A stretch of 64,000 bases of DNA. Source: an uncultured bacterium. GTDB lineage: Bacteria > Krumholzibacteriota > Krumholzibacteriia > JACNKJ01. Within the stretch, counting starts at the first letter, position 1; each line of letters starts with the position of its first letter. The notes under the pieces are model-generated. The model did not search any database. It saw only the letters and a program-made list of their open reading frames with translations, and was not told where the DNA came from. The translations under genes and the position numbers were made by a program. Positions 17,949-60,914 of the stretch are shown in pieces. The DNA is taken from contig CAYPGS010000018.1 of assembly GCA_964410395.1 (NCBI GenBank), positions 1 through 64,000 of the forward strand, read 5' to 3'.

Positions 17949-19178
17949 ATGGCCGATTCCCGGATCTGGGTCGAAGTTTATACCAACGGTGAGAACTACC
18001 AGGTGCGAGCGTCTTCGAAAGGCGCGAAGCTGTTCCGGGAGGGTCTCAACATCGACTCGGCCAAGGACGCCTTGGCTCGCATGGACGACTACGCCGACCT
18101 CCGCAACGACGACTACTTCACCGCGGCGAACGGCGACATCTGCTTCGCCTGCGGGTCCGGTCGGCTAGCCCTCATCGCCGAGCTGATGCGCGAGGAAGGC
18201 ATCAAGGTTCGCGAGGGCGAGAACCTTCTTCCGGACGAGGAAGAGACCAAGCGCATCCTCGAGCGCGAGGGCGCCTTCGGCGAAGAGCTCGCCCACCTGC
18301 TCGACCAGAACCTCCCCTTCTACAAGCGCGGACCCAAGGCTCTCATCGTGGGTACGGCCATGCGCCTGGGCATCCTCATCGTCATCCTGGTGGCGGCCCG
18401 AATCATCTCGCTGAGAAACTCCGACCACTACACCGCGCGCAGCTTCCCCGCGGTCCTTTCGACCCTCGACAGGGAATTCGAGCCCCAGACCTACTTCAGC
18501 TACTTCGCCAAGCCGGTTTACACCCATCGCTCCCTGCTCAAGGTGAAGAAACCCCTCTACATCCGCGGAAACAGGATGATTCTCGAAGGCGGCTACTTCG
18601 TCGAGATCGAAGGCGTTCAGAACCTGAAGGCTTCCATCGAGCGACGCGGCGGAGCGCCTCTGGAAATCCGTATCGACGCTCGCGAGGGCGAACTCAAGAT
18701 GACGAGCCTGCACGTGGGCGATGAGATCGTGGCCCACAAGGGCAAGGTGAACTTCCTCACCCGCATCCCGCTTTCGCCGCTTCCCCTGCGCATCGATCCC
18801 ACCAGCCAGCGCGTGGGCTACCGCAAGGTCAACGACGCCGATCCCCGCAACGAGGAAAGTTTCGAGTGGATGCTCGGCCAGAAGATCAGCATGATCTGCC
18901 GCGTCCAGAGCGACGGCGACCGCTTCCTGGCCTCGGGTTCGGACGGCGAGTTCAAGTTCGCCATCCCCAAGAGCGAGATCAAACCCGTAATCAACGACAT
19001 CCTGGAGATGGCCGTTGCGGCCGATGAGCGCGTCATCCTCGACATGCGCCTGGACGGCAACGCCTACCCGCTGCGCAACCGCCGCAATCCGCGCGAGCAG
19101 CGCCGCGATCTGAATCTGATCACTCGCGGCACTCTGCACTTCGCGCAGGTGCAGGGCGCGGTGATGAAGAACCTCTAG
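17949..19178 (+). CDS. Hypothetical single-pass membrane protein
   Basis: ATG 17949 with a GGCGGAGG SD. One TM segment (ALIVGTAMRLGILIVILVAARII). No recognisable family. Confidence 0.5.
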   Translation: MADSRIWVEVYTNGENYQVRASSKGAKLFREGLNIDSAKDALARMDDYADLRNDDYFTAANGDICFACGSGRLALIAELMREEGIKVREGENLLPDEEETKRILEREGAFGEELAHLLDQNLPFYKRGPKALIVGTAMRLGILIVILVAARIISLRNSDHYTARSFPAVLSTLDREFEPQTYFSYFAKPVYTHRSLLKVKKPLYIRGNRMILEGGYFVEIEGVQNLKASIERRGGAPLEIRIDAREGELKMTSLHVGDEIVAHKGKVNFLTRIPLSPLPLRIDPTSQRVGYRKVNDADPRNEESFEWMLGQKISMICRVQSDGDRFLASGSDGEFKFAIPKSEIKPVINDILEMAVAADERVILDMRLDGNAYPLRNRRNPREQRRDLNLITRGTLHFAQVQGAVMKNL

Positions 19179-19185
19179 GATTGCC

Positions 19186-19593
19186 ATGGGCGAATCCCCC
19201 GCACTGGCCATTCTCCTGACCAGCGGGACTCTCGACAAGATCGTTTCCGCATGCTACCTGGCGGCCAGCGGCATCGCCATGGGCCGCCGCGTTGACTTCT
19301 TCCTCTCCTGGGAACCCCTGCTCAGGCTCAACGAGGGCAGTCTCGGCGAAGCTCCCCTTCCCGAAACCACCATGCTGGAAGACGCCGCCGTGCGGGCGGC
19401 CATGGACGGGCAGCCCGGCCCCGACCAGCTGCTCGCCGACCTTCGCGCCTCGGGTCTGAAGATCTACGCCTGCACGGCCACCATGCAGATGCTCGGCCTC
19501 AGCGAGCGCGACCTGGAAGACAAGGTCGACGACTTCAGCGGCGCCACGGCCTTCCTGGCCATGGCAGGCGGCAGCCAGGTGGTCAACTTCTAG
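19186..19593 (+). CDS. DsrE/DsrF-like family protein
   Basis: 135 aa. LAILLTSGTLDKIVSACYLAASGIAMGRRVDFFLSWE...KIYACTATMQMLGL resembles DsrE_2/peroxiredoxin-like sulfur-relay fold proteins. Confidence 0.6.
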   Translation: MGESPALAILLTSGTLDKIVSACYLAASGIAMGRRVDFFLSWEPLLRLNEGSLGEAPLPETTMLEDAAVRAAMDGQPGPDQLLADLRASGLKIYACTATMQMLGLSERDLEDKVDDFSGATAFLAMAGGSQVVNF

Positions 19594-21648: not shown

Positions 21649-22647
21649 ATGATGCCGAGATTCGCCTTGCTTGCCCTTTTCGCAATGGCCAACGCCGTCG
21701 GTGTTTCTGCGGGGGATCTCTCGGGGGGACCGGTCCGGCAGGGCGGCGACACCATCGAACAGGCCACGATCATTCCCGGCCTGCCCTTCCACGCCACGGG
21801 CTCCACGGTGGGCTTCGAGAACGACTACGAAGAGGAATGTCCCTGGTCGGGCGGAACTGCGGCCGACGTGGTCTATGTCTATTCGCCCAGCGTGGACGTG
21901 ACCATCGACATCAGCAGCTGCGGCCCCCTCTACGACACCAAGCTCTACGTCTACGAAGATGAGTTCACGCCCGGCGCACCCCTGGCCTGCAATGACGATC
22001 TCGCCGGCTGCCCCGAGCAGCTCTACGTGGCCTGGATTCGCGGGGTCGGGCTAGTGGGCGGGCACGACTACTATATCGTCGTGGACGGCTGGGCGAATCA
22101 CTCGGGCGGCTACTGGCTCCACGTCGTCGAGTCGCCCGTCGGCGAGACCTGCGATCCGACGGACTATCCCGTGCTCCCCTTCTTCGAGGACGAGACGGAC
22201 TGTCACGACGACTACGTGGACGAGTTCAACAGCGGTTGCGAGAGCCCGCTCGAACCCTTCACCCATGTGCCGTCCACTGTGCTTATCGCGGGAAAGAGCG
22301 GAACCTTCAACGGAAACACGAGCATGGATAGCGACTGGTACCAGATCCTCGTCGAACACAGCTCCACCGTGACCTTCCTCGCCTGCGCGGGCTATCCCAT
22401 GACTGTTTGGCTCTTCGAGGGAGGGCCCTCCTGCCCGCCCACCGACGTGCTCAGCCAGGTTGGCGGCGATCCCTTCCTCGTGTTCGGGGATGGCGTCGAT
22501 GTCGAGCCGGGACCCTACTGGTTCGCGGTCCACCCCACCGAGCAATGGGGCACGCCCTGCGGCGCGGACTATCTGCTCTACATCGAGACCCACACTTCTG
22601 CATCCCGGTTGATGGACTGGGGAGCGCTGAAATCCATGTATCGGTAG
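21649..22647 (+). CDS. Secreted protein with two PPC (pre-peptidase C-terminal)-like domains and a ...DWGALKSMYR tail
   Basis: Signal peptide MMPRFALLALFAMANAVGVSA. Domain motifs are GDTIEQATII...YYIVVDGW and DSDWYQILVEHSSTVTF. GGAGGAGG SD. Confidence 0.7.
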   Translation: MMPRFALLALFAMANAVGVSAGDLSGGPVRQGGDTIEQATIIPGLPFHATGSTVGFENDYEEECPWSGGTAADVVYVYSPSVDVTIDISSCGPLYDTKLYVYEDEFTPGAPLACNDDLAGCPEQLYVAWIRGVGLVGGHDYYIVVDGWANHSGGYWLHVVESPVGETCDPTDYPVLPFFEDETDCHDDYVDEFNSGCESPLEPFTHVPSTVLIAGKSGTFNGNTSMDSDWYQILVEHSSTVTFLACAGYPMTVWLFEGGPSCPPTDVLSQVGGDPFLVFGDGVDVEPGPYWFAVHPTEQWGTPCGADYLLYIETHTSASRLMDWGALKSMYR

Positions 22648-24198: not shown

Positions 24199-24924
24199 CT
24201 AGCGATACAGCGCCTTGATGGTGCTCCAGTCGGTGCTCTCTGAGGCCGTGGCTTCCTCTTCCACCGAGAAAGCGTCCAGGTGGATCCAGGCCTCGTAGCC
24301 GTCGGCCACCCGCACGGTGAGATAGTCGCCGCCCACCGGCGCCACGAATCCACCGACCACGTGGGTCCAGCCGCCGGTGCCCGAGGCCGCGACGAAGGCC
24401 AGGGTTCCGAAGCTGGCGTCGCTGGCCGAGATGCCCACCTCGACCACGCCGACGTCGGGGTCAAAGTCCAGATTGGACTCGGCGTAGAACTCGATGGTGT
24501 AGGCGGTGCCCGCGACGATGGACGAGGACAGGCCGAAGGAGAAGGCGTCGGTCACGCCGCCCGTGACCGCAGTCCTATGGATGGAGATCTTCGACACGCC
24601 GCTGGCCGGCGCGCTGGCATAGCCGCAGCTGGTGCCGTCGTTCATGACGTCGATCTCGTCCGCGCCGCCGAAGGCGACGATGTCGGACATGCCTGCGGTC
24701 ACGGTCGCATTGGCCAGATTGAAGTTGCAGCCGGCGGCGATGGTGGTGGCTTCGAAGTCGCCGTTCAGGATGATGTTCGAGCGTTCGCTGGAGCTGGGGG
24801 GCGACTCCGCGGGAATCTCGATCTCGGTGCTCTCAAGCGGCGATGAAGTGCCCTCAAACGCGAAGGCCGAAGCGGTCAATCCGAAGAGTGAGAACATGGC
24901 AAACAATACGATCAGTTTCTTCAT
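24199..24924 (-). CDS. Secreted protein, tail ...DWSTIKALYR
   Basis: Start at ATG 24924. Signal peptide MKKLIVLFAMFSLFGLTASAFA. Beta-rich sequence. Confidence 0.7.
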   Translation of the reverse strand: MKKLIVLFAMFSLFGLTASAFAFEGTSSPLESTEIEIPAESPPSSSERSNIILNGDFEATTIAAGCNFNLANATVTAGMSDIVAFGGADEIDVMNDGTSCGYASAPASGVSKISIHRTAVTGGVTDAFSFGLSSSIVAGTAYTIEFYAESNLDFDPDVGVVEVGISASDASFGTLAFVAASGTGGWTHVVGGFVAPVGGDYLTVRVADGYEAWIHLDAFSVEEEATASESTDWSTIKALYR

Positions 24925-26217: not shown

Positions 26218-26811
26218 ATGCGCACATTGCTCACGGCCCTAATCATCCTCGCCACAAGCAGCTTCGCCGCGGCCGTGGATATCACCATCACACCCCTGGA
26301 GTACGCTCCGGAAGGTCGTTGGTACGAAGGCCCCGAAAGCTTCGAGAACGCCTTCCCCCCTAGCGGGTGGCACCTGAACATCGAGAACTCGTCATACACC
26401 TGGTTCAAGGGCGGAGAGCCGGCCTTCGACGGCGTCCACAGCGCCACCATCTTCGGCGACACCCACGGCAGCTACTCGGACGAGTGGTTGGGCTTCAACT
26501 ACTCCTACACTGCCAACGAGATTCTCACCTTCGCCATGCGTGGCGACCGGACCCTCACCGGCACCTGTTACATGTACATCGGTGAAGATCTGATCCTCGA
26601 CTTCAGCGCAGATTGGCCCCTGAACTGGGACGAATGGGGACTGGTCACCGTGGACCTCGGAACCACGAACTACGTGGGCTTCCCCAACGTGGCATTCGAC
26701 TGGAACTACGTGGGCACCATGGGCCCTACCGTCCGCCTGGACATGGTCGAGATCACGCAGGGCGTCTCGACTGCGGTCGGCGATTGGAGCACGCTGAAGA
26801 CCCTCTACTAG
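26218..26811 (+). CDS. Secreted protein, tail ...DWSTLKTLY
   Basis: Signal peptide MRTLLTALIILATSSFAAA. GGAGG SD. 197 aa. Confidence 0.7.
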   Translation: MRTLLTALIILATSSFAAAVDITITPLEYAPEGRWYEGPESFENAFPPSGWHLNIENSSYTWFKGGEPAFDGVHSATIFGDTHGSYSDEWLGFNYSYTANEILTFAMRGDRTLTGTCYMYIGEDLILDFSADWPLNWDEWGLVTVDLGTTNYVGFPNVAFDWNYVGTMGPTVRLDMVEITQGVSTAVGDWSTLKTLY

Positions 26812-33051: not shown

Positions 33052-33078
33052 CCCCTCGCCCCGAGCGAGGAGGATGTG

Positions 33079-33660
33079 ATGAGGTATTTGGCGATTGCCT
33101 TCCTATTGATTCCCGCCGTCGTTCAGGCCAACTCCATCGGAGTCTACAACCTGGGCGGCCCCTACGATCCCGGCGGCGGCTGAGGCAGCGGTTGGCACTG
33201 CGGGACGGTCGTCCCCTACGTACCCACCGATCTGGTCGTCGTCGCGAATTTCACGCTTGAAGAGGGCATCACGGCCGCCGAGTTCAGAATCGACAATCTC
33301 CCCACCAATGACGGATATCCTTCCGGAACGGTCACCGTGAGCTCCACCTCCGACCTGGTCATCGGTGACTTGTGGTGGGATTTCTCCATCGCATGGTCCG
33401 AGCCCGTCGGGGCCGGCCTGGGCTACGCGGTCATCGCCGAGATCGAATTGCTCATGTTCGATCCGGCCTGGATCGGTTCGGACCGATGGCTCCAGGTTGC
33501 GCCGGGCTACGACTGCGACTGCCTGGTACTCGTCGACTCGATGTTCGATACCCATGATGCCTGGGGAGACACCATGATCCTGAACTGCAATGCCGATTGC
33601 TGGATGTGCCTGACGGCCACGGCGGAAAGCAGCTGGTCGGAAGTGAAGTTGCTCTACTAG
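33079..33660 (+). CDS. Secreted protein (paralogue of 42098..42670), interrupted by an in-frame TGA at 33181..33183; tail ...SSWSEVKLLY
   Basis: GAGGAGGA SD, ATG 33079 and signal peptide MRYLAIAFLLIPAVVQA are in the same frame as track ORF 33337..33660. A single TGA lies between them. Homology to the paralogue spans both sides of the TGA. Confidence 0.6.
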
Positions 33661-38956: not shown

Positions 38957-41839
38957 CTACTTGATGAGAACCATGGTCCGGCTCTTCACCTCTCCGTTCG
39001 CCGAGAGGCGATAGAGGTAGACGCCGCTGCCCACGGGGTTGCCCTTCTGATCGCGACCTTCCCAGATGACGCGGTGCTCGCCGGCGACCATCTGGTCGGC
39101 GATGAGGGTGCGCACCAGGCGGCCGTTGACGTCGAAGACCTTCAGATCCACGCGTCCGTCGGTCTCAAGAGCGAACTTGATCTCGGTGCGCGGGTTGAAG
39201 GGATTCGGATGGTTCTGCTCGAGGCGCAGGGGCACGCCGATGGTGAACTCGTCGTCCACGTTCGTGCCGCCGATGACCGCGTGGATCATGAGGTCATCCA
39301 GGGCGCCCTCGACCAAGGTCGGGATGGTGCCGTCCTTGACCTCGAACTTGAACTGAACCTGTCCGGGCTGTGCGAACAGATCGTGCAGGTAGAACTCGTT
39401 GTCCTTCCAATACGCTTCCATCGAACCGGTGTCGACATCCAGTTCGACCCAGTTGGACCCGCCGTCATTCGAGATGGACGCCGTCCAGGAATCACCCGTG
39501 CGACCGTAGTACCAGTACCAGTAGCTGATGTAAACCTCGCTGGCCTGGGTCAAGTCGTAGATGGGCGAAAGCAGCGTGACCGTACCGCCGGTGACGTCGT
39601 TGAAGTTGTCGGCCTCGCCGGGGGTGTGCTGACCGGTCACCCAACACAGGGTTCCGGGGTGGCTGATGTCGTCCTCGGGCTGTGCGGTGGTTCCGATGGG
39701 ATCCGCGCGCTCCCAGTGTCCCGTGCTGGCGGTGGCTTCGGTGCTCCAACCGGCGTCGATCTCCATGTCCTCGAGGCGCCAGGCCACGAAGAACTTGTGG
39801 AAGACGTTCGGAGCGCCCCAAGGCGAGGTTCCCGTGGTGCCCACGGTGTCCTCGGCGTAGATGTAGTAGTCCACCTGACCGGCCTGCTGCCCCGGAATCT
39901 GTCCGAAGAAGTAGGAACCGTTCATGGTATCCATATCCACGCTGTTCCAGCTGCCGCCGTTGTGGCGGTAGTAGATGGTGGCGGATTCGGGATCCAGCGG
40001 ACCCTCGGTGGACGAGATGGTCGCGCCCACGGTGTAGGGACCATCCATGTCGCCGGTGTCCGTCAGCGGAGTGTGCTCGAAGAGCACGCCCACGAGGATG
40101 GGCGGCACGTCGTAACCGTGATGCGTGGCCGCCGCGGAGAGAATGCTGTAGTGAGGCGTTCCATTGTCGAGGTCGCCGTCGTCGTCGTCGGCCATGAAGG
40201 TCCAGAAGACCTGGTCGGGCTGGTTGGTGGGATGCCCCATCAAACGCCCGTAGTGCCAGCGCTCGGCGGCCATGATGGTGCCCAACTCGTCACCGTAGTT
40301 GGACTGCATTCCCATCATGATGTCCCAGTGGAAGCCCGCGATGATCTGACCGTCGTGGTGGATCTGCCCGTTCATGTCTTCGGGGTAGATCAGGTCGTTG
40401 TCGGAGTTGCGGATTCCGTCGGTGCAGTTGCCCAGGTAGAAGCCGCGGCCGATGATGGACTCCTGCGTCATGAGGTTGGCCAGAACGTCGGAGTTACCTT
40501 CACCCAATCCCTGATCGCCCTGCCATCCGAGGATGGCGGCCTGCACGCCGTGACCGAACTCGTGATGCACCACTCCCTGGATCTCACCGGTGTTGGCGCA
40601 GCCGCCGCCTTCGGTGAAGAAGTTGATGCTGCCGTTCCAGTAGGCATTGCAGTTGTCGTTGAGGCTCACGTAAGCGTTCATCCGCTGGTTCGGCAGCGCG
40701 AACTCCGGAGCCCAGAGCTGGAAGAAGTCATGAATATCGTTGACGGCGTTGAAGACGTCGCGCTCGTCGTTCTGAGCGTTGAGGTCATCGTAAGAGATCG
40801 TCAGCGGAGTCCCTTCCCAGGCGGTTCCCGTGAATGTCGCCTCGGGGCCCCCCGAGTTCGTGATGTTGCAATAGGGACCATAGAGGTCGGCCGTGATCTG
40901 GGCCGTACCGCTGGGGCTGCTCCAATCACCATTCTCGTCGGTATAGACCGTTCCGCTGCCCGCAACCTGAACGCGCAGGTAGGGCACGGACTGATCATGG
41001 ATGCCGTTGCACCAGGTGTCCGGCTGCACTTCGGAGTTCGTGTCGCCTTCGATGAAGAAGTGCACATCGTTGTAGCGCCAGACGATCTCGCCGGTATGGG
41101 CGTCCACGTGGGTCACCCAGATACCGACCGGATCGGCCGTATGCACGCGCAGGCGCCAGACCAGGTGATACTCCACGCTCTCCTCGCTGAGGGGCACAGG
41201 GAGCACGACCAGTTCGGGCGCGGCTTCGACGCTGTCCTCGGCGGGATTGAAGCCGACATCCATGCGCGCGATCTGCTCAGCCTGATCGGCGGAGATGGCA
41301 GGCATGGCGGACAGATCGATATCGTTGTAGAGATCCGAGCCCGCAGCAATCAAGCGTCCATCTTCGGTGAAGGCGGCGAAGGCCTTGCCCTGCCAGACTT
41401 CGATTCCCTCGAAGGTCTGAGCGAGATGAGCGACCCACTTGCCCTTGTAGTTCACGCGATCGGTGATCTGCAACTCAACGCCGGCGGCACCGAGGTGCTC
41501 GGCCTGCTCGTCGAAGAGACGAAGCGTGGCGGCGTCAAGATCCACCGCGGAGCGCATGCCAGCGGTGTAGGCAGTGTTGCCGTAGACGATATGAGGCGTG
41601 CCGGCCTGGGAGTTCCAAGACCAGACATGCCAGTTGCCGCCCAGATCCTGGGCGAGTCCCTCTTCCACCGCGGCGCTAGCCTGGAGCGTCGCGAAGGATT
41701 CATAGATGTGGAGGTCGTAGGTGCCGAGAGGGATGGCGAAATCTTGCGAGTGTTCCGGTGCCTTGAACGCCTGGCTCGTGATGAGAACCAGCGCAAGACC
41801 GAGGGTGGTCAGAGCAAGGCTGAAGCGGGACTGCTTCAC
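38957..41839 (-). CDS. Thermolysin-clan (M36/M4-like) secreted zinc metalloprotease with FlgD-Ig/T9SS-type CTD
   Basis: VVHHEFGHGVQAAILG (HExxH) plus GLGEGNSDVLANL (EGxSD third-ligand motif). AGGAGG SD and GTG 41839. Signal peptide VKQSRFSLALTTLGLALVLITSQAFKA. C-terminus is NPFNPRTEIKFAL...GVYLYRLSANGEVKSRTMVLIK. Confidence 0.8.
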   Translation of the reverse strand: MKQSRFSLALTTLGLALVLITSQAFKAPEHSQDFAIPLGTYDLHIYESFATLQASAAVEEGLAQDLGGNWHVWSWNSQAGTPHIVYGNTAYTAGMRSAVDLDAATLRLFDEQAEHLGAAGVELQITDRVNYKGKWVAHLAQTFEGIEVWQGKAFAAFTEDGRLIAAGSDLYNDIDLSAMPAISADQAEQIARMDVGFNPAEDSVEAAPELVVLPVPLSEESVEYHLVWRLRVHTADPVGIWVTHVDAHTGEIVWRYNDVHFFIEGDTNSEVQPDTWCNGIHDQSVPYLRVQVAGSGTVYTDENGDWSSPSGTAQITADLYGPYCNITNSGGPEATFTGTAWEGTPLTISYDDLNAQNDERDVFNAVNDIHDFFQLWAPEFALPNQRMNAYVSLNDNCNAYWNGSINFFTEGGGCANTGEIQGVVHHEFGHGVQAAILGWQGDQGLGEGNSDVLANLMTQESIIGRGFYLGNCTDGIRNSDNDLIYPEDMNGQIHHDGQIIAGFHWDIMMGMQSNYGDELGTIMAAERWHYGRLMGHPTNQPDQVFWTFMADDDDGDLDNGTPHYSILSAAATHHGYDVPPILVGVLFEHTPLTDTGDMDGPYTVGATISSTEGPLDPESATIYYRHNGGSWNSVDMDTMNGSYFFGQIPGQQAGQVDYYIYAEDTVGTTGTSPWGAPNVFHKFFVAWRLEDMEIDAGWSTEATASTGHWERADPIGTTAQPEDDISHPGTLCWVTGQHTPGEADNFNDVTGGTVTLLSPIYDLTQASEVYISYWYWYYGRTGDSWTASISNDGGSNWVELDVDTGSMEAYWKDNEFYLHDLFAQPGQVQFKFEVKDGTIPTLVEGALDDLMIHAVIGGTNVDDEFTIGVPLRLEQNHPNPFNPRTEIKFALETDGRVDLKVFDVNGRLVRTLIADQMVAGEHRVIWEGRDQKGNPVGSGVYLYRLSANGEVKSRTMVLIK

Positions 41840-42097
41840 GGGGAGCCTCCTATATGGAAGGGGGACATGGGGATTGGATGAGGCGATAATTGTAAATTGT
41901 ACCACATATGAACGGAAATTGGGAACGGGGAAGGGGCCGTGCTGCGGTTCTATGGGGAAGATCGGGGCCCCAACCCCTCATCGAGGCTGACGCCCCGAAT
42001 TCAAGAAGGTGAAGATTTTCCAAGAAAATATAAACTTGCCAGGTCCGCAAGAGGCTAACAGCGTTACCCACCACTTCAAAAAACAGCCAGTTGTGGA

Positions 42098-42670
42098 TCA
42101 GAATAGCTGCTTAATGGCACTCCAGCTGGATTCATGGGTCGCTGTCGGGAACCAGGAACAGTAGCACCAGGATGGATCCGTGCAGTTGAAAGTAAACTGC
42201 CCTCCCATGACATCGACGATCTCGAAATCCGCGTCCACGACCACGAGGCACTCGCAGTCGGCTCCCTCTCCAACCGTCATGATCCAGTCATCGAGGATCC
42301 AGGTGGGATCGAACATCGTGAATTCGATGGATCCCAGGTGGATCAAGGGACCCGGCTGGGGCTCGGAGAAGGCGATGGAGAAGTCCCAGGTGATGTCGCC
42401 GATGATCAAATCGCTGTTCCAGTACTCGTAGGCAGATCCTATCGGATAACCTGGGTTACCCGGATAGTTGGCAATTCGGAATTCAGCGGCCGTGACTGCA
42501 TCGATATCCGGTACGACGGCCATCACATGCACCATCATGGGGACGTACTCTTCGATCGGAGCATGGCATTCGGAGCCCCAGACATCGTCGGCGAAGATTC
42601 CGATGAGACCCTGGGCAATGCCAGGACCGGCTACGGCGAGGCACAACATCACAAGCACGAGTTGGCGCAT
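42098..42670 (-). CDS. Secreted protein (paralogue of 33079..33660), tail ...SSWSAIKQLF
   Basis: GGGAGGG SD and ATG 42670. Signal peptide MRQLVLVMLCLAVAGPGIAQG. Lies between the two M36-like protease genes. Confidence 0.7.
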   Translation of the reverse strand: MRQLVLVMLCLAVAGPGIAQGLIGIFADDVWGSECHAPIEEYVPMMVHVMAVVPDIDAVTAAEFRIANYPGNPGYPIGSAYEYWNSDLIIGDITWDFSIAFSEPQPGPLIHLGSIEFTMFDPTWILDDWIMTVGEGADCECLVVVDADFEIVDVMGGQFTFNCTDPSWCYCSWFPTATHESSWSAIKQLF

Positions 42671-42837: not shown

Positions 42838-45765
42838 TTACTTGATCAGAACCATCCTCTTGCTCTGGGTGCCCTCTTCCGTGGCGAGTCGATAAAAGTA
42901 GACGCCGCTTCCCACGGGCTCGCCCTGCTCGTCGCGACCGTCCCAGATCACGCGATGCTCGCCGGCGTCCATGTTTCCGGCGGCGAGGTTCTTCACCATG
43001 CGGCCGGCCACATCGAAGACGCTCAGGTCCACGCGTCCGCTCGCCGGCAGCGAGAAGGTGATCTCCGTTCGCGGGTTGAAGGGATTGGGCGCGTTCTGCT
43101 CCAGACGCAGAGGCACGCTCACGGCGAAGTCCTCATCGAGATCGGTGCCGAAGAGCGCGGTGATGGACACGTCGTCGATGGCGGCCTCCACCAGCGAGTT
43201 GTCGCCGGAGTCGTCCGCCACGAACTTGAACTGCACCTGTCCGTACTCGGTCACCCAGTCGTTCAGATCGAAGATCACCGAGACCCAGGCGTTGGTGCTG
43301 GCAGTCGTGGACTCCAGGGCGGTCCAGCTGGAGCCGCCGTCATTGGAGAAGTAGCTGCGCCAGGTGTCCTCGCCCGGATTGGGACCCTTGTCGTTGGAGT
43401 ACCACTTCCAGTAGCGCACGTTCACGGAGCTGGCGCCGGTGAGGTCGTAGACGGGGCTGAAGAGCGTGGTCTTGCCGCCGTCCACGTCGTTGGCGCCGTC
43501 GCTGCTGCCCATGCGTCCGTCGGTGACCCAGCAATCGGTGCCCTCGCTGGTGTGATCGTCCTCGGGCTGAGCGCTGGTGCCGTCGGGATCCATGCGGTTC
43601 CACTCGCCGTCGTCGGCGGTGTCGAAGATGTCCCCCACCGTCCAGCCACCATCCTCCTCGGCCGGATCGATGGCCCAGGCCACCAGGAAACTGAAGGGCT
43701 CGCCCGGCGCGTCATCGGGATGATAGCCCACGGTACCCAGATCGTCCTCGGCGTAGAGGTAGTAATCGACCCGGCCGCCGGAGGTGGGCGGAATCGAGGC
43801 CTCGAACTGGCCGCCGCCCAGATCGCTCATGCCCGACTCGACCCAGAGGCCGCCCTCGTAGCGATAGCGCAGTTTCACGGTGGACGGGTCGATGTTGCCC
43901 TCCACGGACCAGATGGTCGCCTCGATGGGGTAAGCATTGTCGCTGTCGGTGGTGTCGTCCAGAGGCGCGTGCACGAAGACGATGCCCGCGGGAATCGGAC
44001 ACTCGAAGCAGTGGTTCTCGGCCGCCTCGCAGTAGATGTCGCCGTGGGGCGTGCCGTTGAGGATGTCATCGTCGTCGTCGTCGGCGATGAAGGTCCAGAG
44101 CACCTGGTCGGGCTGGTACTCGGGATGTCCGAGCACGCGGCCGTAGTGCCAGTTGCTCGCCGCCACGATCGTACCCGGCGAGTCCCAGGCGCTTTCGCCG
44201 CCGTCGTAGAGTTCCTGCAGCAAGACCATGGCGTCCCAGTTGAAGCCGGCGATGATCTGGCCATCATGGTGAACGCTGCCGTTGAGGTCGGAGGGATAGC
44301 AGAGATCGTTGTCCGAGTTCCGGATGCCGCTCACGCAGTTGCCCAGGTAGAAGCCCCGGCCGATCACCGAATCCTGGGTGATCAGGTTGCCGAGAATGTC
44401 GCTGTTGCCCTCGCCCAGGCCCTCTTCGCCCTGGTATCCCAGGATGGCCGCCTGCACGCCGTGACCGAACTCGTGGTGCACCACCTGCTGCAGCTCGCCC
44501 GTATTGGCGCAGCCGCCGGCGCTGTAGCAGAAGTTGATGGTGCCGTCCCACCAGGCGTTGCAGGGACAGTAGCCGTCGTCCCGGTTGATGGTCGCGTGGA
44601 TTTGCTGGTTGGCATAGGCGAACTCCGGCGCGAAGAGCTGGAAGAAATCGTGGATGTCGTTCACCGCGTCGAAGGTGTCCAGCTCGTCCTGGCGCGCGTT
44701 GCCGGAGTCGAAGTCGACGGTGAAGGGAACATCCTCGCTCACGACGCCGCTGAAGGAAGCTTCCTGCCCCTGGAAGTTGGTCACGTAGACATAGGGACCG
44801 TGAAGGTCGGCGCTGACGCTGCGATCGCCTCCGCTTCCCGCGATGGTCCAGTTGCCGTTCTCGTCGCTGGTCACCGTGCCGAGGCCGGCCACGTCAATGT
44901 CGAGGTAGGGAATCGTGGCCACGGTGATGCCGTCGCACCAGCCGTAGATCTGGGCGTCGATCTCCGTGTCGCCGCCGTAGGCAAAGTGGATGTCGTTTCG
45001 GCGCTGAAGGATCTCGCCGCTGTGGGCGTCCACGTCGGTGACCCAGATGCCCAGGGGCTCTTCGGTGCGCACCCGCACTCGCCAGACCAGGTGATGCTCC
45101 ACCTCTTCCTCATTCAGGGCAACCGGCAGCACATGGAGCACGCTCTCCCCGTCGAGGCGATCGGTGCTCGGGTCGAAGGGCAGATCGCCTCGGGCGATGT
45201 CCTCGGCCGCCAGGCGCGAGTAGGCGGGCAGGGTCGAGAGCTCGAGATCCGAGTAGACGTCCGATCCCATGAGCAGTAGTGAGCCGCTGTCGCTGAAGAG
45301 CACCACGGCCTTGCCGCCCTTGACCTCTACGCCTTCATGGACCTGCTGGAAGTGTACGGCCCACTTGCCCCTCGCATGTTCCACGGCCGCGAGGCGCAGG
45401 TTCTCACCGTTCGTGCCGAAGACCGAGGGGTGATCCGCGATGACCCGCCAGGCCGCGGCCTCGGCATCGGCCTCTCTGGACAGACTCGCGCCCATGGCGA
45501 TGGGCGAACCATAGACGTAGTGCGGCGTGCCGGTGCGCGCATTCCAGGACCAGACCTCCCAGTCCACGTCATGGCGCGCCTTGAGCTCGGATTTCAGCGA
45601 GCTCATGGCCTGCTCGACCGCAAAGGATCGGTACCCATGAAAATCGAACTCGGGAAAACGGATTTCATACTCGTCGTTCTGATCGACGGGCATGAAGGCG
45701 AAGCTGGCGGGCGCGAAGAGGGCCAGGATGGCCGCGATGAGACGTAAGGGGACGTTCGGGCGCAT
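42838..45765 (-). CDS. Thermolysin-clan (M36/M4-like) secreted zinc metalloprotease with FlgD-Ig/T9SS-type CTD (paralogue)
   Basis: VVHHEFGHGVQAAILG plus GLGEGNSDILGNL. Start at ATG 45765, with signal peptide MRPNVPLRLIAAILALFAPASFA. The track's 46095 start is an Arg-rich extension that overlaps the next gene. C-terminus is ...GVYFYRLATEEGTQSKRMVLIK. Confidence 0.8.
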   Translation of the reverse strand: MRPNVPLRLIAAILALFAPASFAFMPVDQNDEYEIRFPEFDFHGYRSFAVEQAMSSLKSELKARHDVDWEVWSWNARTGTPHYVYGSPIAMGASLSREADAEAAAWRVIADHPSVFGTNGENLRLAAVEHARGKWAVHFQQVHEGVEVKGGKAVVLFSDSGSLLLMGSDVYSDLELSTLPAYSRLAAEDIARGDLPFDPSTDRLDGESVLHVLPVALNEEEVEHHLVWRVRVRTEEPLGIWVTDVDAHSGEILQRRNDIHFAYGGDTEIDAQIYGWCDGITVATIPYLDIDVAGLGTVTSDENGNWTIAGSGGDRSVSADLHGPYVYVTNFQGQEASFSGVVSEDVPFTVDFDSGNARQDELDTFDAVNDIHDFFQLFAPEFAYANQQIHATINRDDGYCPCNAWWDGTINFCYSAGGCANTGELQQVVHHEFGHGVQAAILGYQGEEGLGEGNSDILGNLITQDSVIGRGFYLGNCVSGIRNSDNDLCYPSDLNGSVHHDGQIIAGFNWDAMVLLQELYDGGESAWDSPGTIVAASNWHYGRVLGHPEYQPDQVLWTFIADDDDDDILNGTPHGDIYCEAAENHCFECPIPAGIVFVHAPLDDTTDSDNAYPIEATIWSVEGNIDPSTVKLRYRYEGGLWVESGMSDLGGGQFEASIPPTSGGRVDYYLYAEDDLGTVGYHPDDAPGEPFSFLVAWAIDPAEEDGGWTVGDIFDTADDGEWNRMDPDGTSAQPEDDHTSEGTDCWVTDGRMGSSDGANDVDGGKTTLFSPVYDLTGASSVNVRYWKWYSNDKGPNPGEDTWRSYFSNDGGSSWTALESTTASTNAWVSVIFDLNDWVTEYGQVQFKFVADDSGDNSLVEAAIDDVSITALFGTDLDEDFAVSVPLRLEQNAPNPFNPRTEITFSLPASGRVDLSVFDVAGRMVKNLAAGNMDAGEHRVIWDGRDEQGEPVGSGVYFYRLATEEGTQSKRMVLIK

Positions 45766-45872
45766 GAACCGGAGACCTCCGATGGAGCGGGAATGGGATT
45801 CGGTGCAGGGTTTAAGTATACCGCTTCCGGCCCCCGCGACCAAGGCCGCCGGCCATCGAGGACTCCTGGATC

Positions 45873-46502
45873 CTAAAGCCCTCGCAGGAAGGGGTTTGAG
45901 GCGGCCTCCTCCACGAGACTGCTGTCGGGACCGTGTCCGCTGTGAAGAACCGTGGAAGGCGGCAGCGCATCGATGATGCGCTCCTTGATCGAGCGCATGA
46001 GCGTGTCGTAGTCGCCGCCCGGCAGGTCGGTGCGGCCGATGGATCCGGCGAAGAGGGTGTCGCCGGCGAAAAGATGACCGTTCAGGCTGAGACACACGCC
46101 CCCGGGACTGTGACCCGGCGTGTGGATGACGCGCACCTCCAGCTCCCCCACCGCGACGGTTTCGCCATCGCGAAGGGGCTCGTCCAGGCGAGGAGGCTTC
46201 GCGGGCTCGATGCCATAGAGGCCACAGATCTGCTCGAGGTTCTCGACCAGGAAGCGGTCGTCCTCATGCATGCGGAAGGGGATCTCGAGACGGCTCTGCA
46301 GCTCCGCCGCGCCCAGCACGTGGTCCACATGGCCGTGAGTGTTCAGGATGCTCTCGATCTGGAGTCCATGCTGCTCGGCGCGGGCGATGAGGGTCTCCAC
46401 CTCGCCGCCTGGATCCACCACGAAGGCCTTCTTCGTCGCGGGATCGCCCACGAGGAAGGTGTTCTCCTGGAATGCGCCCACGGTGAGCATCTCGACGATC
46501 AT
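45873..46502 (-). CDS. MBL-fold hydrolase (hydroxyacylglutathione hydrolase-like)
   Basis: 209 aa. ILNTHGHVDHVLG (HxHxDH) and VIHTPGHSPGG. Confidence 0.8.
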   Translation of the reverse strand: MIVEMLTVGAFQENTFLVGDPATKKAFVVDPGGEVETLIARAEQHGLQIESILNTHGHVDHVLGAAELQSRLEIPFRMHEDDRFLVENLEQICGLYGIEPAKPPRLDEPLRDGETVAVGELEVRVIHTPGHSPGGVCLSLNGHLFAGDTLFAGSIGRTDLPGGDYDTLMRSIKERIIDALPPSTVLHSGHGPDSSLVEEAASNPFLRGL

Positions 46503-60443: not shown

Positions 60444-60914
60444 CTAGCCGACCAATTCCTTGGTCTTCGCGAGCAGTTCCATCGGCTGACGCGCGCCGTC
60501 GGGACCGACGGACTTGGACCAGAGGACCTTGCCATTCTTGTCGATCAGAATGGTGGCGCGGTCGGAGATGCCCGCTTCATCCAGCCACAGGCCGTAGGCC
60601 TTGGACACTTCGCCCTTGGGATGGAAGTCGGCCATCAGGGGAAACTTGATGCCGTCAAAGGTGCTCGCCCAGCCCTTGTGTGTGAACTTCGAATCCACGC
60701 TCATACCCAGAACCTGGGTATCGATGGCCTCGAACTCTTCGAGAAGAGCGTTGAGGCCAGGGATCTCGATGCTTCAAGTGGGCGTGAAGTCGAGGGGATA
60801 GGAAACGAAAAGCACATTCTTGGAGCCCTTGAAATCCGAGAGCTTGACGATCTCGTCCAAGTGGCTGTCCAGGCTGAAATCCGGAGCGTTCGCGCCGGCT
60901 TCGATCAGGGCCAT
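60444..60914 (-). CDS. AhpE/BCP-like 1-Cys peroxiredoxin with in-frame TGA (60774..60776) at the peroxidatic position: candidate selenoprotein
   Basis: Track ORFs 60774..61094 and 60444..60704 are in the same frame and are separated by one TGA. The joined product has YPLDFTPT-[TGA]-SIE, which matches PxxxTxxC, and the conserved Arg (DRATILID). GGAGG SD lies 7 nt before ATG 60914. Confidence 0.7.
60726..60758 (-). other. Candidate bacterial SECIS stem-loop
   Basis: The mRNA 15 nt 3' of the UGA reads GGCCUC-AACG-CUCUU-CUCG-AAGAG-UUC-GAGGCC. That is a 6-bp lower stem, an internal loop and a 5-bp upper stem. An alternative fold is CUCGAA-GAG-UUCGAG. Confidence 0.4.

What the first reader, a model, noticed from the sequence alone, without database searches (positions are those of the whole stretch)
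33079..33660. Second in-frame TGA, 34 codons into a secreted-protein gene, followed by a GGUC-loop hairpin
SD GAGGAGGA, ATG 33079 and signal peptide MRYLAIAFLLIPAVVQA are in the same frame as track ORF 33337..33660. The only interruption is TGA 33181..33183. The paralogue 42098..42670 aligns on both sides of it: ITAAEFRIDNLP/VTAAEFRIANYP, DLWWDFSIAWSEP/DITWDFSIAFSEP, DCDCLVLVD/DCECLVVVD, SSWSEVKLLY/SSWSAIKQLF. Where this copy has GGG-TGA-GSGWHC the paralogue has VWGSEC, that is Trp, so a single TGG to TGA change would explain the stop. However, 18 nt downstream lies GGGAC-GGUC-GUCCC (33202..33215), a G/U-containing tetraloop of the kind used by the E. coli fdhF SECIS paradigm. The same window also holds a stronger Sec candidate. 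Three readings remain open: nonsense pseudogene, Sec insertion or read-through, or a base-call error.
Basis: partly seen in the sequence, partly recalled or inferred. Interest (0 to 1): 0.5.

Follow-up and report, generated by a model that had tools for sequence, protein, structure and literature searches.

The report
Conserved in-frame UGA: likely secreted selenoprotein
A small secreted protein gene carries a stop codon (UGA) 34 codons in; four related uncultured bacterial lineages keep it, along with an unchanging RNA hairpin just after it, so it is most likely read as selenocysteine and is neither a broken gene nor a sequencing error.

Summary
ATG 33079, a signal peptide, TGA 33181-33183 and the ORF ending at TAG 33658-33660 share one frame. 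GGGAC-GGUC-GUCCC lies at 33202-33215.

- **Not a base-call error.** The same TGA is in 14 contigs from at least 10 samples.
- **Not a pseudogene.** Four lineages keep the TGA at 69-76% nucleotide identity (dS about 1-2). dN/dS is about 0.1-0.5 on both sides of it.
- **RNA-level constraint.** Codons 33-47, covering the TGA and a 31-nt hairpin (33194-33224), are almost frozen at synonymous sites: dS 0.09-0.20 against 0.9-2.0 elsewhere, permutation p = 0.003. The two sites that vary among the three main species are unpaired.
- **SECIS match.** The hairpin meets all four published bacterial SECIS criteria, and its GGUC loop is that of E. coli fdhF. About 40% of random TGAs here also pass those criteria, so conservation carries the argument.
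- **TGA is a normal stop elsewhere.** In sister lineages it terminates this same gene.
- **Sec use in the lineage.** A peroxiredoxin with PxxxTxxU (60444-60914, minus strand) shows it indirectly.

Best reading: a new candidate selenoprotein (about 0.75). sel genes and selenium incorporation are untested.

The parts
33067..33074 (+). Shine-Dalgarno GAGGAGGA, 4 nt before the ATG
   Evidence: Read directly. GAGGAGGATGTGATG is identical in all three species aligned.
33079..33660 (+). Full coding sequence of the candidate selenoprotein: 193 sense codons plus UGA at codon 35, with terminator TAG 33658-33660
   Evidence: Translation. The family alignment covers both sides of the UGA. dN/dS is well below 1 on both sides.
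33079..33129 (+). Signal peptide MRYLAIAFLLIPAVVQA. Cleavage after VQA is inferred.
   Evidence: Hydrophobic N-terminus present in all family members. The cleavage site is an inference, not a prediction-tool result.
33181..33183 (+). In-frame UGA (codon 35), proposed selenocysteine codon within GGG-U-GSGWHC
   Evidence: Identical in 14 contigs of four lineages.
33194..33224 (+). SECIS-like imperfect hairpin, positions 14-44 counted from the U of UGA. The lower stem is G14-C44, G15-C43, A17-U41, C18-G40, U19-A38, G20-U37.
   Evidence: RNAalifold consensus of three species. The invariant nucleotide block ends exactly at its 3' end. The only two sites that vary among those three species (positions 12 and 42) are unpaired.
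33202..33215 (+). Upper stem GGGAC/GUCCC with apical tetraloop GGUC (33207-33210), 23 nt after the UGA
   Evidence: The loop sequence is the same as in the E. coli fdhF SECIS.
33184..33201 (+). Codons for GSGWHC. His40 and Cys41 follow the Sec, and Cys41 is the best counterpart of the family's nearly invariant N-terminal Cys.
   Evidence: Alignments. The family has 6 conserved Cys; this protein has 6 Cys plus U.
42098..42670 (-). Intact paralogue (190 aa) without UGA, insertion or hairpin
   Evidence: Its AlphaFold2 model has pLDDT 90.8 and a cohesin-like fold.
60444..60914 (-). Peroxiredoxin gene with in-frame TGA 60774-60776 at the peroxidatic position (PLDFTPT-U). This is indirect evidence that the organism decodes UGA as Sec.
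   Evidence: More than 100 close homologues are truncated at the same point. The same TGA is present in the sister species, on the same contig as its copy of the target gene. The PxxxTxxU motif is described in PMC13188914.

Best explanation
The gene 33079-33660 encodes one 193-residue secreted protein whose codon 35 (UGA) is recoded to selenocysteine.

**Proposed mechanism.**
- When the ribosome reaches UGA 33181-33183, the hairpin 33194-33224 lies just outside the mRNA channel. Its upper stem is GGGAC/GUCCC and its apical loop is GGUC.
- The hairpin acts as a bacterial SECIS. It tethers SelB-GTP-Sec-tRNA(Sec), which then outcompetes RF2.
- Translation continues into GSGWHCGTVVPYVP... and the rest of the domain.
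- The preprotein is exported through the Sec translocon and its 17-residue signal peptide is removed.
- The mature protein is a cohesin-like beta-sandwich of about 176 residues. It has a C-terminal SWSxVKLLY tail and carries Sec in a Gly-rich loop between the first two strands, six residues before the family's conserved Cys (U-GSGWH-C).
- Without selenium, translation would stop after 34 codons, so output of the full protein would depend on selenium.

**Shown here.** The UGA is real and conserved. Both flanks are under purifying selection as one reading frame. There is a nucleotide-level constraint centred on the UGA and hairpin. TGA is otherwise a stop. The fold is cohesin-like.

**Inferred.** That the inserted residue is Sec, that SelB binds the hairpin, the signal-peptide cleavage site, and any redox or metal role of the Sec/His/Cys loop.
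For: 1. **The TGA is real.** It is present in the window and in 13 further contigs from at least 10 samples.
2. **It is conserved across divergent lineages.**
   - Four lineages keep it: the window; L001/L007; L039/L044/L045; L043.
   - Gene-wide nucleotide identity is 69-76% between the three main species. CarA is 78-81% identical between them.
3. **Both flanks are translated.**
   - dN/dS is 0.18-0.46 for codons 1-34 and 0.08-0.33 for codons 36-85.
   - No start codon is conserved after the TGA. In the window the first is GTG 33337, which lies inside the conserved domain.
   - The homologous N-terminal strand IGxY lies upstream of the TGA, and the conserved Cys and YVP lie downstream.
4. **Synonymous sites are frozen around the TGA and hairpin.**
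   - Over codons 33-48, dS is 0.09-0.20, against 0.94-1.99 for the rest of the gene.
   - Only 1 of 13 informative codons in 33-47 varies, against 59% gene-wide. The pointwise p is 1.6e-4 and the scan-corrected permutation p is 0.0033.
   - The invariant block ends at the 3' end of the hairpin. Both sites that vary among the three main species are unpaired.
5. **The hairpin fits the published bSECIS model** (PMC13188914): loop 4 nt (allowed 3-9), stem 5 bp (at least 4), G in the first two loop positions (GG), spacing 23 nt (allowed 16-37), MFE -10.3 kcal/mol (at most -7.5). Its GGUC loop is the same as in E. coli fdhF.
6. **Decoding is local, not a code change.**
   - TGA terminates carA, an S8 peptidase, a PFL-like enzyme and other genes in the window.
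   - In L039, L043, L044 and L045 it also terminates this very gene.
7. **The lineage uses Sec.** The window and the sister species carry a peroxiredoxin with UGA at the peroxidatic position of PxxxTxxC/U, a known selenoprotein family.
Against: - No selA, selB, selD or tRNA-Sec lies in the 64-kb window or the fetched flanks. The rest of the genome could not be searched.
- No Cys-form orthologue of the insertion-bearing clade was found among 5.8 billion proteins or 1.84 billion cluster representatives. The usual Cys/Sec pair hallmark is therefore missing.
- The column alignment is ambiguous. MAFFT aligned a U-to-C version with the family Cys. Cysteine counting and the L008 comparison instead favour C41 as the family Cys.
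- The bSECIS rule set is unspecific here: 39.7% of all 1,696 TGA triplets in the window pass it. The hairpin is also no more stable than shuffled sequence.
- All orthologues are nearly identical across the hairpin, so there is no compensatory covariation.
- The peroxiredoxin's own hairpin has a CUCG loop with 30-nt spacing and does not resemble this one.
- In L043 the C18-G40 pair is broken (G to C). That copy also carries a TAA at codon 70.
- Rfam gave no hit. To my knowledge it has no bacterial SECIS family.
Confidence: 0.75

Rival explanations
1. Programmed, Sec-independent read-through. The UGA is decoded at some frequency by a near-cognate tRNA (for example Trp), possibly stimulated by the conserved downstream hairpin. 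The result is a mixture of a 34-residue product and the full-length protein.
For: - Everything that shows the UGA must be passed fits this reading equally well.
- Paralogue B has Trp four residues before its Cys (VWGSEC).
- No Cys-form orthologue exists.
- The hairpin rule match is unspecific.
Against: - These lineages carry a bona fide Sec-type peroxiredoxin gene, so the dedicated machinery is probably present.
- The hairpin has the spacing and the G[G/U] apical loop expected for SelB binding, identical to the fdhF loop.
- Retention of TGA instead of TGG over dS of about 1-2 would need a special regulatory benefit.
- No Trp is conserved in this column in the family.
- From my own knowledge, conserved hairpin-stimulated stop read-through is very rare in bacterial chromosomal genes.
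Confidence: 0.13
2. Two separate products. The 34-codon ORF makes a short secreted peptide, and the downstream part is translated independently by re-initiation.
For: Gene callers annotate it this way in every assembly: 34 aa plus 107, 112 or 142 aa.
Against: - The annotated downstream starts differ between species (GTG 33337 in the window; MVANF or MHVVANL elsewhere), and none is conserved.
- The 51 codons between the TGA and the window's first start are under strong purifying selection (dN/dS 0.08-0.33) and belong to the conserved fold.
- The downstream product would lack the signal peptide and the first beta-strand that all about 190-aa homologues have.
Confidence: 0.05
3. Nonsense pseudogene, from a single TGG-to-TGA or similar mutation.
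For: - The 'WGS' versus '*GS' match with paralogue B.
- One lineage (L043) does show decay, with TAA at codon 70.
Against: - The TGA is shared by four lineages at 69-76% nucleotide identity.
- There are no frameshifts or other stops in three of them.
- dN/dS is about 0.2 on both sides.
- The region around the TGA is the most conserved part of the gene at both protein and synonymous level.
Confidence: 0.02
4. Sequencing or assembly error, or genome-wide reassignment of UGA (code 4 or 25).
For: - The Gly-rich context (GGG-UGA-GSG) would read smoothly under code 25.
- Two database peroxiredoxin homologues show G or W at the U column.
Against: - The TGA is identical in at least 10 independent samples.
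- TGA ends many well-supported genes in the window.
- TGA ends this same gene in L039, L043, L044 and L045.
Confidence: 0.01

Closest known systems
Bacterial Sec-UGA/bSECIS recoding, with E. coli fdhF as the paradigm
   Same: - An in-frame UGA is followed within the coding sequence by a stem-loop.
- The apical tetraloop GGUC is identical to that of fdhF.
- All four constraints of the consensus bSECIS model are met.
- The mRNA is frozen at synonymous sites over the element.
   Different: - The loop lies 23 nt after the UGA, against 18 nt in fdhF.
- The upper stem is 5 bp of G-C-rich helix with no bulged U.
- There is no experimental evidence for SelB binding.
- Sec is not at a known catalytic Cys position, and no Cys-form orthologue exists.
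Cohesin modules (type I/II/III cellulosomal cohesins; C. perfringens GH33/GH84 cohesins; PDB 2vo8, 6kgc, 2w1n, 3ul4, 2xdh)
   Different: - Sequence identity is 7-19%, and there is no hit to any Pfam family, including cohesin, at E <= 1.
- The domain has six conserved Cys, and most single-domain members also have a C-terminal SW[SG]x[IV]KxL[YF] tail.
- No dockerin partner was identified.
- No known cohesin contains Sec.
Predicted exported, non-thioredoxin-fold bacterial selenoproteins, for example DUF1573 (UGC motif) and the UGSC-containing protein NF041046 listed in PMC13188914
   Same: These are small proteins of unknown function, predicted by comparative genomics only. In both, Sec is followed by Gly (U-G-S... 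here; UGSC or UGC there).
   Different: - There is no NCBIfam or Pfam match to those or any other family.
- The motif here is U-x5-C rather than UGSC or UxxC.
- Sec lies in a lineage-specific loop insertion.
Sec-containing peroxiredoxin (PF00578, PxxxTxxU)
   Same: This applies to the neighbouring gene 60444-60914(-), not to the finding itself. It has the motif PLDFTPT-U, with AhpC-TSA/Redoxin Pfam domains on the downstream fragment.
   Different: It is unrelated in sequence and fold to the target. Its downstream hairpin (CUCG loop, 30-nt spacing) differs from the target's.

Membership tests
Bacterial selenoprotein gene (Sec-UGA + bSECIS) | In-frame UGA conserved among orthologues, with coding conservation on both sides | tested here: met
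   Four lineages and 14 contigs keep the TGA. dN/dS is 0.18-0.46 upstream and 0.08-0.33 downstream.
Bacterial selenoprotein gene (Sec-UGA + bSECIS) | Stem-loop meeting the consensus bSECIS model: loop 3-9 nt, stem 4-16 bp, G in the first two loop positions, 16-37 nt from the UGA, MFE <= -7.5 kcal/mol | tested here: met
   Loop GGUC, 5-bp stem, 23 nt, -10.3 kcal/mol; criteria from PMC13188914. Specificity is low, since 39.7% of window TGAs also pass. Support comes from synonymous-site freezing, p = 0.0033.
Bacterial selenoprotein gene (Sec-UGA + bSECIS) | Cys-containing homologues with Cys aligned to Sec | tested here: inconclusive
   No Cys-form orthologue of the insertion clade was found. The family has a nearly invariant Cys close by, and one alignment pairs it with the UGA column. 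Cys counting (6 Cys + U) and the comparison with L008 favour C41 as its counterpart.
Bacterial selenoprotein gene (Sec-UGA + bSECIS) | Genome encodes selA, selB, selC (tRNA-Sec) and selD | not testable with these tools
   None is in the 64-kb window or the fetched flanks. Indirect support comes from the PxxxTxxU peroxiredoxin in the same window and in sister species.
Bacterial selenoprotein gene (Sec-UGA + bSECIS) | Selenium actually incorporated at the UGA position | not testable with these tools
   Requires 75Se labelling or mass spectrometry.
Cohesin domain | Nine-stranded jelly-roll beta-sandwich superposable on solved cohesins | tested here: met
Cohesin domain | Sequence membership (Pfam cohesin profile) and a dockerin partner | tested here: not met
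   No Pfam family at E <= 1. The dockerin partner was not searched for.
UGSC-containing selenoprotein (NF041046) and other NCBIfam-curated selenoprotein families | Match to the family HMM | tested here: not met
   NCBIfam scan of the read-through protein returned 0 families at E <= 1.
Nonsense pseudogene | Lineage-restricted stop with relaxed constraint, extra stops or frameshifts | tested here: not met
   Only L043 shows an additional TAA.
UGA reassignment (genetic codes 4 or 25) | TGA not used as a terminator; in-frame TGAs widespread | tested here: not met
   About 12 of roughly 51 GC3-supported ORFs in the window end in TGA, including carA. The target gene itself ends in TGA in L039 and L043-L045.

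The most novel reading that the evidence does not exclude
Sec here is not a replacement of a pre-existing catalytic Cys. It arose inside a lineage-specific Gly-rich loop insertion (GGPY..GGG-U-GSGWH) of a secreted cohesin-like domain. This would be a new extracellular selenoprotein family outside the thioredoxin-fold and oxidoreductase world. It would carry an unpaired selenol next to His and Cys, which could capture a metal or form a covalent Se-S tether to a partner. Its synthesis would be gated by selenium supply.
Probability: 0.55. Interest if true: 0.62.

Novelty: new member of a known kind. Interest (0 to 1): 0.55.

Why it matters
Almost all known bacterial selenoproteins are intracellular redox enzymes in which Sec replaces a catalytic Cys, and most prediction pipelines depend on that Cys/Sec pairing.

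A secreted cohesin-fold protein whose Sec sits in a newly inserted loop, with no Cys-form orthologue, would be missed by those pipelines. Every assembly examined here annotates the gene as two fragments.

If confirmed, it would extend the structural and functional range of selenoproteins and add Sec use to a poorly known candidate lineage (Krumholzibacteriota-like). It would also offer a small natural example of how a Sec codon and its SECIS can arise together inside a coding sequence.

On the practical side, this gene and the neighbouring peroxiredoxin should each be annotated as a single CDS with a transl_except for Sec.

Tried and rejected
- **Rfam.** A gathering-threshold scan of the whole window gave no hits. 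It is uninformative, because to my knowledge Rfam has no bacterial SECIS model.
- **Thermodynamic z-scores.** The hairpin scores +0.13 to -0.48. I rejected this as a test because authentic fdhF scores only -0.91.
- **My strict bSECIS scan** (contiguous stem, no dangles) missed even the target. The relaxed version passes 39.7% of all TGAs, so rule matching is only a necessary condition.
- **tRNA-Sec and sel genes.** ARAGORN on the window and 10 loci found nothing relevant. Pfam on about 40 window ORFs found no sel genes.
- **DsrE-like ORF 19168-19593.** Checked as another possible selenoprotein; it has no in-frame TGA.
- **Cys-form orthologue.** The word-index search, the profile search of 1.84 billion representatives, GTDB genomes and JGI metagenomes gave none. 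The nearest intact homologues (L008 at 55%, P0029 at 51%) lack the insertion.
- **Structure prediction of the target with U replaced by C.** The afdb50 fold library was unavailable.
- **Shared SelB-binding motif.** Comparing the target hairpin with the peroxiredoxin hairpin showed no obvious common loop. This is left unresolved.
- **Literature.** No paper links Krumholzibacteria with Sec use in a meaningful way. 'UGSC-containing protein' is a different family.

Full report
**1. The observation**

The region reads exactly as described.
- The SD GAGGAGGA is at 33067-33074 and the ATG at 33079.
- The N-terminus is hydrophobic: MRYLAIAFLLIPAVVQA.
- One in-frame TGA lies at 33181-33183 (codon 35). 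The same frame then runs on to TAG 33658-33660.
- GGGAC-GGUC-GUCCC occupies 33202-33215, starting 18 nt after the TGA.

The paralogue at 42098-42670 is on the minus strand. It aligns over its full length at 44% identity, on both sides of the TGA column.

**2. Not an error, not a pseudogene**

A homology search found only N-terminally truncated gene calls for the closest relatives: P0001 (107 aa) and P0002 (142 aa). Fetching their contigs showed why. Every assembly has a 34-codon ORF, a TGA, and then the rest of the gene in the same frame.

*Where the TGA is found*
- Three further SRA runs of the window's own species: L004-L006.
- A sister species, L001-L003 and L007, the latter from MAG CAYFNT01.
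- A third species, L039-L041, L044 and L045.
- A fourth lineage, L043, from GCA_003934915.1.
- In total the motif GGnGGCGGC-TGA-GGCAGCGGnTGGCACTGCGGGACGGTCGTCCCC occurs in 14 contigs from at least 10 samples.

*How diverged the carriers are*
- The three main species are 69-76% identical in DNA and 64-77% in protein across the gene.
- Their CarA proteins are 78-81% identical.
- Synteny is conserved in the three main species: GT2 glycosyltransferase, this gene, an A24-type peptidase on the other strand, then carA and carB. L043 keeps the GT2 gene and the opposite-strand neighbour, but a large MAM/FlgD_ig protein gene follows instead of carA.

*Selection*
- Nei-Gojobori estimates give dS of about 0.8-1.5 gene-wide.
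- dN/dS is 0.18-0.46 for codons 1-34.
- dN/dS is 0.08-0.33 for codons 36-85, the stretch between the TGA and the first possible restart codon in the window, GTG 33337.
- The family's first beta-strand (IGxY) is encoded upstream of the TGA. The conserved Cys and the YVP strand are encoded downstream.

The ribosome must therefore pass this UGA. There is also an internal contrast: L043 carries a true nonsense change at codon 70 (AAA to TAA) that no other lineage shares.

**3. Not a changed genetic code**

About 12 of roughly 51 ORFs with a coding GC3 signature end in TGA. Among them are carA (ATGA overlap with carB), an S8 peptidase, a PFL-like glycyl-radical enzyme, an ABC transporter and an acyl-CoA dehydrogenase, all supported by Pfam. 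In L039 and L043-L045 the target gene itself terminates with TGA. The same mRNA thus has one UGA that is read and one that stops, which points to a local recoding signal.

**4. The local signal**

Across the three main species the most conserved part of the gene, at both levels, surrounds the TGA.
- The longest run of invariant residues in the protein is codons 32-49.
- Nucleotide identity over that stretch is 93-96%, against 76% overall.
- From 6 nt before the TGA to 42 nt after it, only two positions vary among these three species.
  - One is the third base of Gly38 (U/G/A, position 12 counting the U of UGA as 1).
  - The other is position 42 (A/U/A).
- RNAalifold places a 31-nt imperfect hairpin at positions 14-44, window 33194-33224.
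  - The upper stem is G22-C35 to C26-G31, with the loop G27-G28-U29-C30.
  - Both variable positions are unpaired, and the invariant block ends exactly at the hairpin's 3' end.
- Of 13 informative codons in 33-47, only one has any synonymous change, against 59% gene-wide.
  - Pointwise binomial p = 1.6e-4; permutation p for any such run = 0.0033.
  - dS over codons 33-48 is 0.09-0.20, against 0.94-1.99 elsewhere.

The hairpin satisfies all four constraints of the consensus bacterial SECIS model, as stated in PMC13188914.

| Constraint | Model | This hairpin |
|---|---|---|
| Apical loop | 3-9 nt | 4 nt (GGUC) |
| Upper stem | 4-16 bp | 5 bp |
| G in first two loop positions | required | GG |
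| Spacing from UGA to loop | 16-37 nt | 23 nt |
| MFE | <= -7.5 kcal/mol | -10.3 kcal/mol |

I checked my recollection of the E. coli fdhF SECIS against 5,426 E. coli genomes. The 42-nt sequence is present under fdhF in 5,419 of them. It folds with the same GGUC apical loop, 18 nt after its UGA.

Two caveats apply.
- The rule set is unspecific in this G+C-rich DNA: 39.7% of all 1,696 TGA triplets in the window pass it.
- The hairpin is no more stable than shuffled sequence, although fdhF is not either (z = -0.91).

The weight therefore rests on conservation. Because the orthologues are almost identical here, there is no compensatory covariation.

**5. Does the organism use Sec?**

No sel gene or tRNA-Sec lies in the window or the fetched flanks. 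I could not search the rest of the genome.

- Its in-frame TGA at 60774-60776 falls exactly at the peroxidatic position of the universal motif: PLDFTPT-U, that is PxxxTxxU.
- This is an established selenoprotein family (PMC13188914).
- More than 100 close database homologues are truncated at the same point.
- The sister species has the same TGA on the same 118-kb contig as its copy of the target gene.
- The L043 lineage has the same truncated peroxiredoxin call on the same 70,209-bp contig as its copy of the target gene.
- Its downstream hairpin is strong (z = -3.55) but has a CUCG loop with 30-nt spacing, unlike the target's. I could not resolve that difference.

**6. What the protein is**

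Neither Pfam nor NCBIfam recognises it. That includes the curated selenoprotein families, such as the UGSC-containing protein NF041046.
- A profile search of 1.84 billion cluster representatives found 845 relatives at E <= 1e-3.
  - Most of the best 150 listed are secreted single-domain proteins of about 190 aa.
  - Others are 1,000-1,700-aa proteins with 3-4 copies of the domain.
  - Some are circularly permuted.
- Named genomes carrying the family include Krumholzibacteriota MAGs. CarA's nearest named relatives are also Krumholzibacteriota and Eisenbacteria, at 66-71%.
- Most single-domain members have six conserved Cys and a C-terminal SW[SG]x[IV]KxL[YF] tail.

The UGA-containing clade differs by an 8-10-residue Gly-rich insertion between strands 1 and 2: IGVY-NLGGPYDPGGG-U-GSGWH-C-GTVVPYVP. 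The nearest homologue without a UGA reads IGLY-ADEQPTNEN-C-DAAVVPYTP (L008, 55%).

The target has six Cys plus U, so Sec is most simply an extra, unpaired residue six positions before the conserved Cys. One alignment instead pairs the UGA column with that Cys, so the classical Cys/Sec test is inconclusive. The paralogue's Trp (VWGSEC) is not conserved in the family. It gives no support to a Trp ancestry for this codon.

**7. Mechanism and rivals**

| Reading | Confidence |
|---|---|
| SelB/SECIS-dependent Sec insertion at codon 35, giving a secreted cohesin-like selenoprotein whose synthesis depends on selenium | about 0.75 |
| Sec-independent programmed read-through | about 0.13 |
| Separate leader peptide plus re-initiation | about 0.05 |
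| Nonsense pseudogene | about 0.02 |
| Sequencing error or code change | about 0.01 |

- Read-through is not excluded by sequence alone. It is less parsimonious, given the Sec-type peroxiredoxin and the SelB-type loop.
- Re-initiation is contradicted by the lack of a conserved start and by selection on the intervening codons.

Any redox or metal role for the U/H/C loop is speculation.

**8. Novelty**

The recoding mechanism is the known one. The protein family, its cohesin fold, its extracellular location and the origin of Sec within a loop insertion without a Cys-form orthologue are not among the selenoprotein families listed in the 2026 review. I rate it a new member of a known kind and moderately interesting. 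It is a good candidate for experimental confirmation and for correcting the split-gene annotation.

Noticed in passing
window 60444-60914 (-), TGA 60774-60776: Peroxiredoxin gene split by an in-frame TGA at the peroxidatic position (PLDFTPT-U-SIE, i.e. PxxxTxxU). It is followed by a strong hairpin (z = -3.55). More than 100 close homologues are truncated at the same point. It should be annotated as one Sec-containing CDS.
   Followed up: partly
window 22615-22641 (+), 26782-26808 (+), 33631-33657 (+), 24205-24231 (-), 42101-42127 (-): Five ORFs end with the same C-terminal motif [STD]W[SG]x[IVL]Kx[LM][YF](R)-stop. Three of them have no Pfam match and are not obviously related to the cohesin-like family. 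It looks like an undescribed C-terminal sorting or anchoring tag of this lineage.
   Followed up: no
L043:758-1339 (GCA_003934915.1, RRYU01013805.1): In this fourth lineage the gene keeps TGA35 but has an extra TAA at codon 70 (AAA to TAA). It also has a G-to-C change that breaks the C18-G40 pair of the lower stem, and a raised nonsynonymous-to-synonymous ratio against L039 (27:22 codons). The copy is probably decaying, or the assembly has an error.
   Followed up: partly
proteins P0109, P0115, P0117, P0129, P0136, P0138, P0141, P0155; P0011-P0022: The cohesin-like family includes circularly permuted members, in which the 'IGxFxDxxxxxC' strand sits near the C-terminus instead of the N-terminus. 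It also includes giant proteins with 3-4 tandem copies of the domain.
   Followed up: no
window, whole: TAG is by far the commonest terminator: about 35 of roughly 51 GC3-supported ORFs, against about 12 TGA and 4 TAA. That is unusual for a 63% G+C genome.
   Followed up: no
window 38957-41905 (-) and 42838-46095 (-): Two paralogous secreted proteins of about 1,000 aa flank the intact cohesin-like paralogue. Both have an HEFGH zinc-protease-like motif and a C-terminal FlgD_ig domain, and neither has any other Pfam match. Many other large secreted proteins in the window (C25 and S8 peptidases, a WD40 protein) also end in FlgD_ig.
   Followed up: no
proteins P0158 and P0219: The only 'full-length' database homologues of the Sec-peroxiredoxin show Gly or Trp at the U column (DFTPTGSIE; DWTGTWSKE). 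These may be TGA codons translated under code 25 or code 4 by the annotating pipelines.
   Followed up: no
window 33074-33081: ATGTGATG: a two-codon ATG-TGA mini-ORF overlaps the start codon, and an in-frame GTG lies at 33076. The string GAGGAGGATGTGATG is identical in all three species.
   Followed up: no
L001:3452-4024: The sister species has an extra tandem paralogue of the cohesin-like gene immediately downstream of the UGA-containing copy. It is 190 aa, intact, and reads IGIYADETGTIRCADLVPYV. The window lacks it at that position.
   Followed up: no
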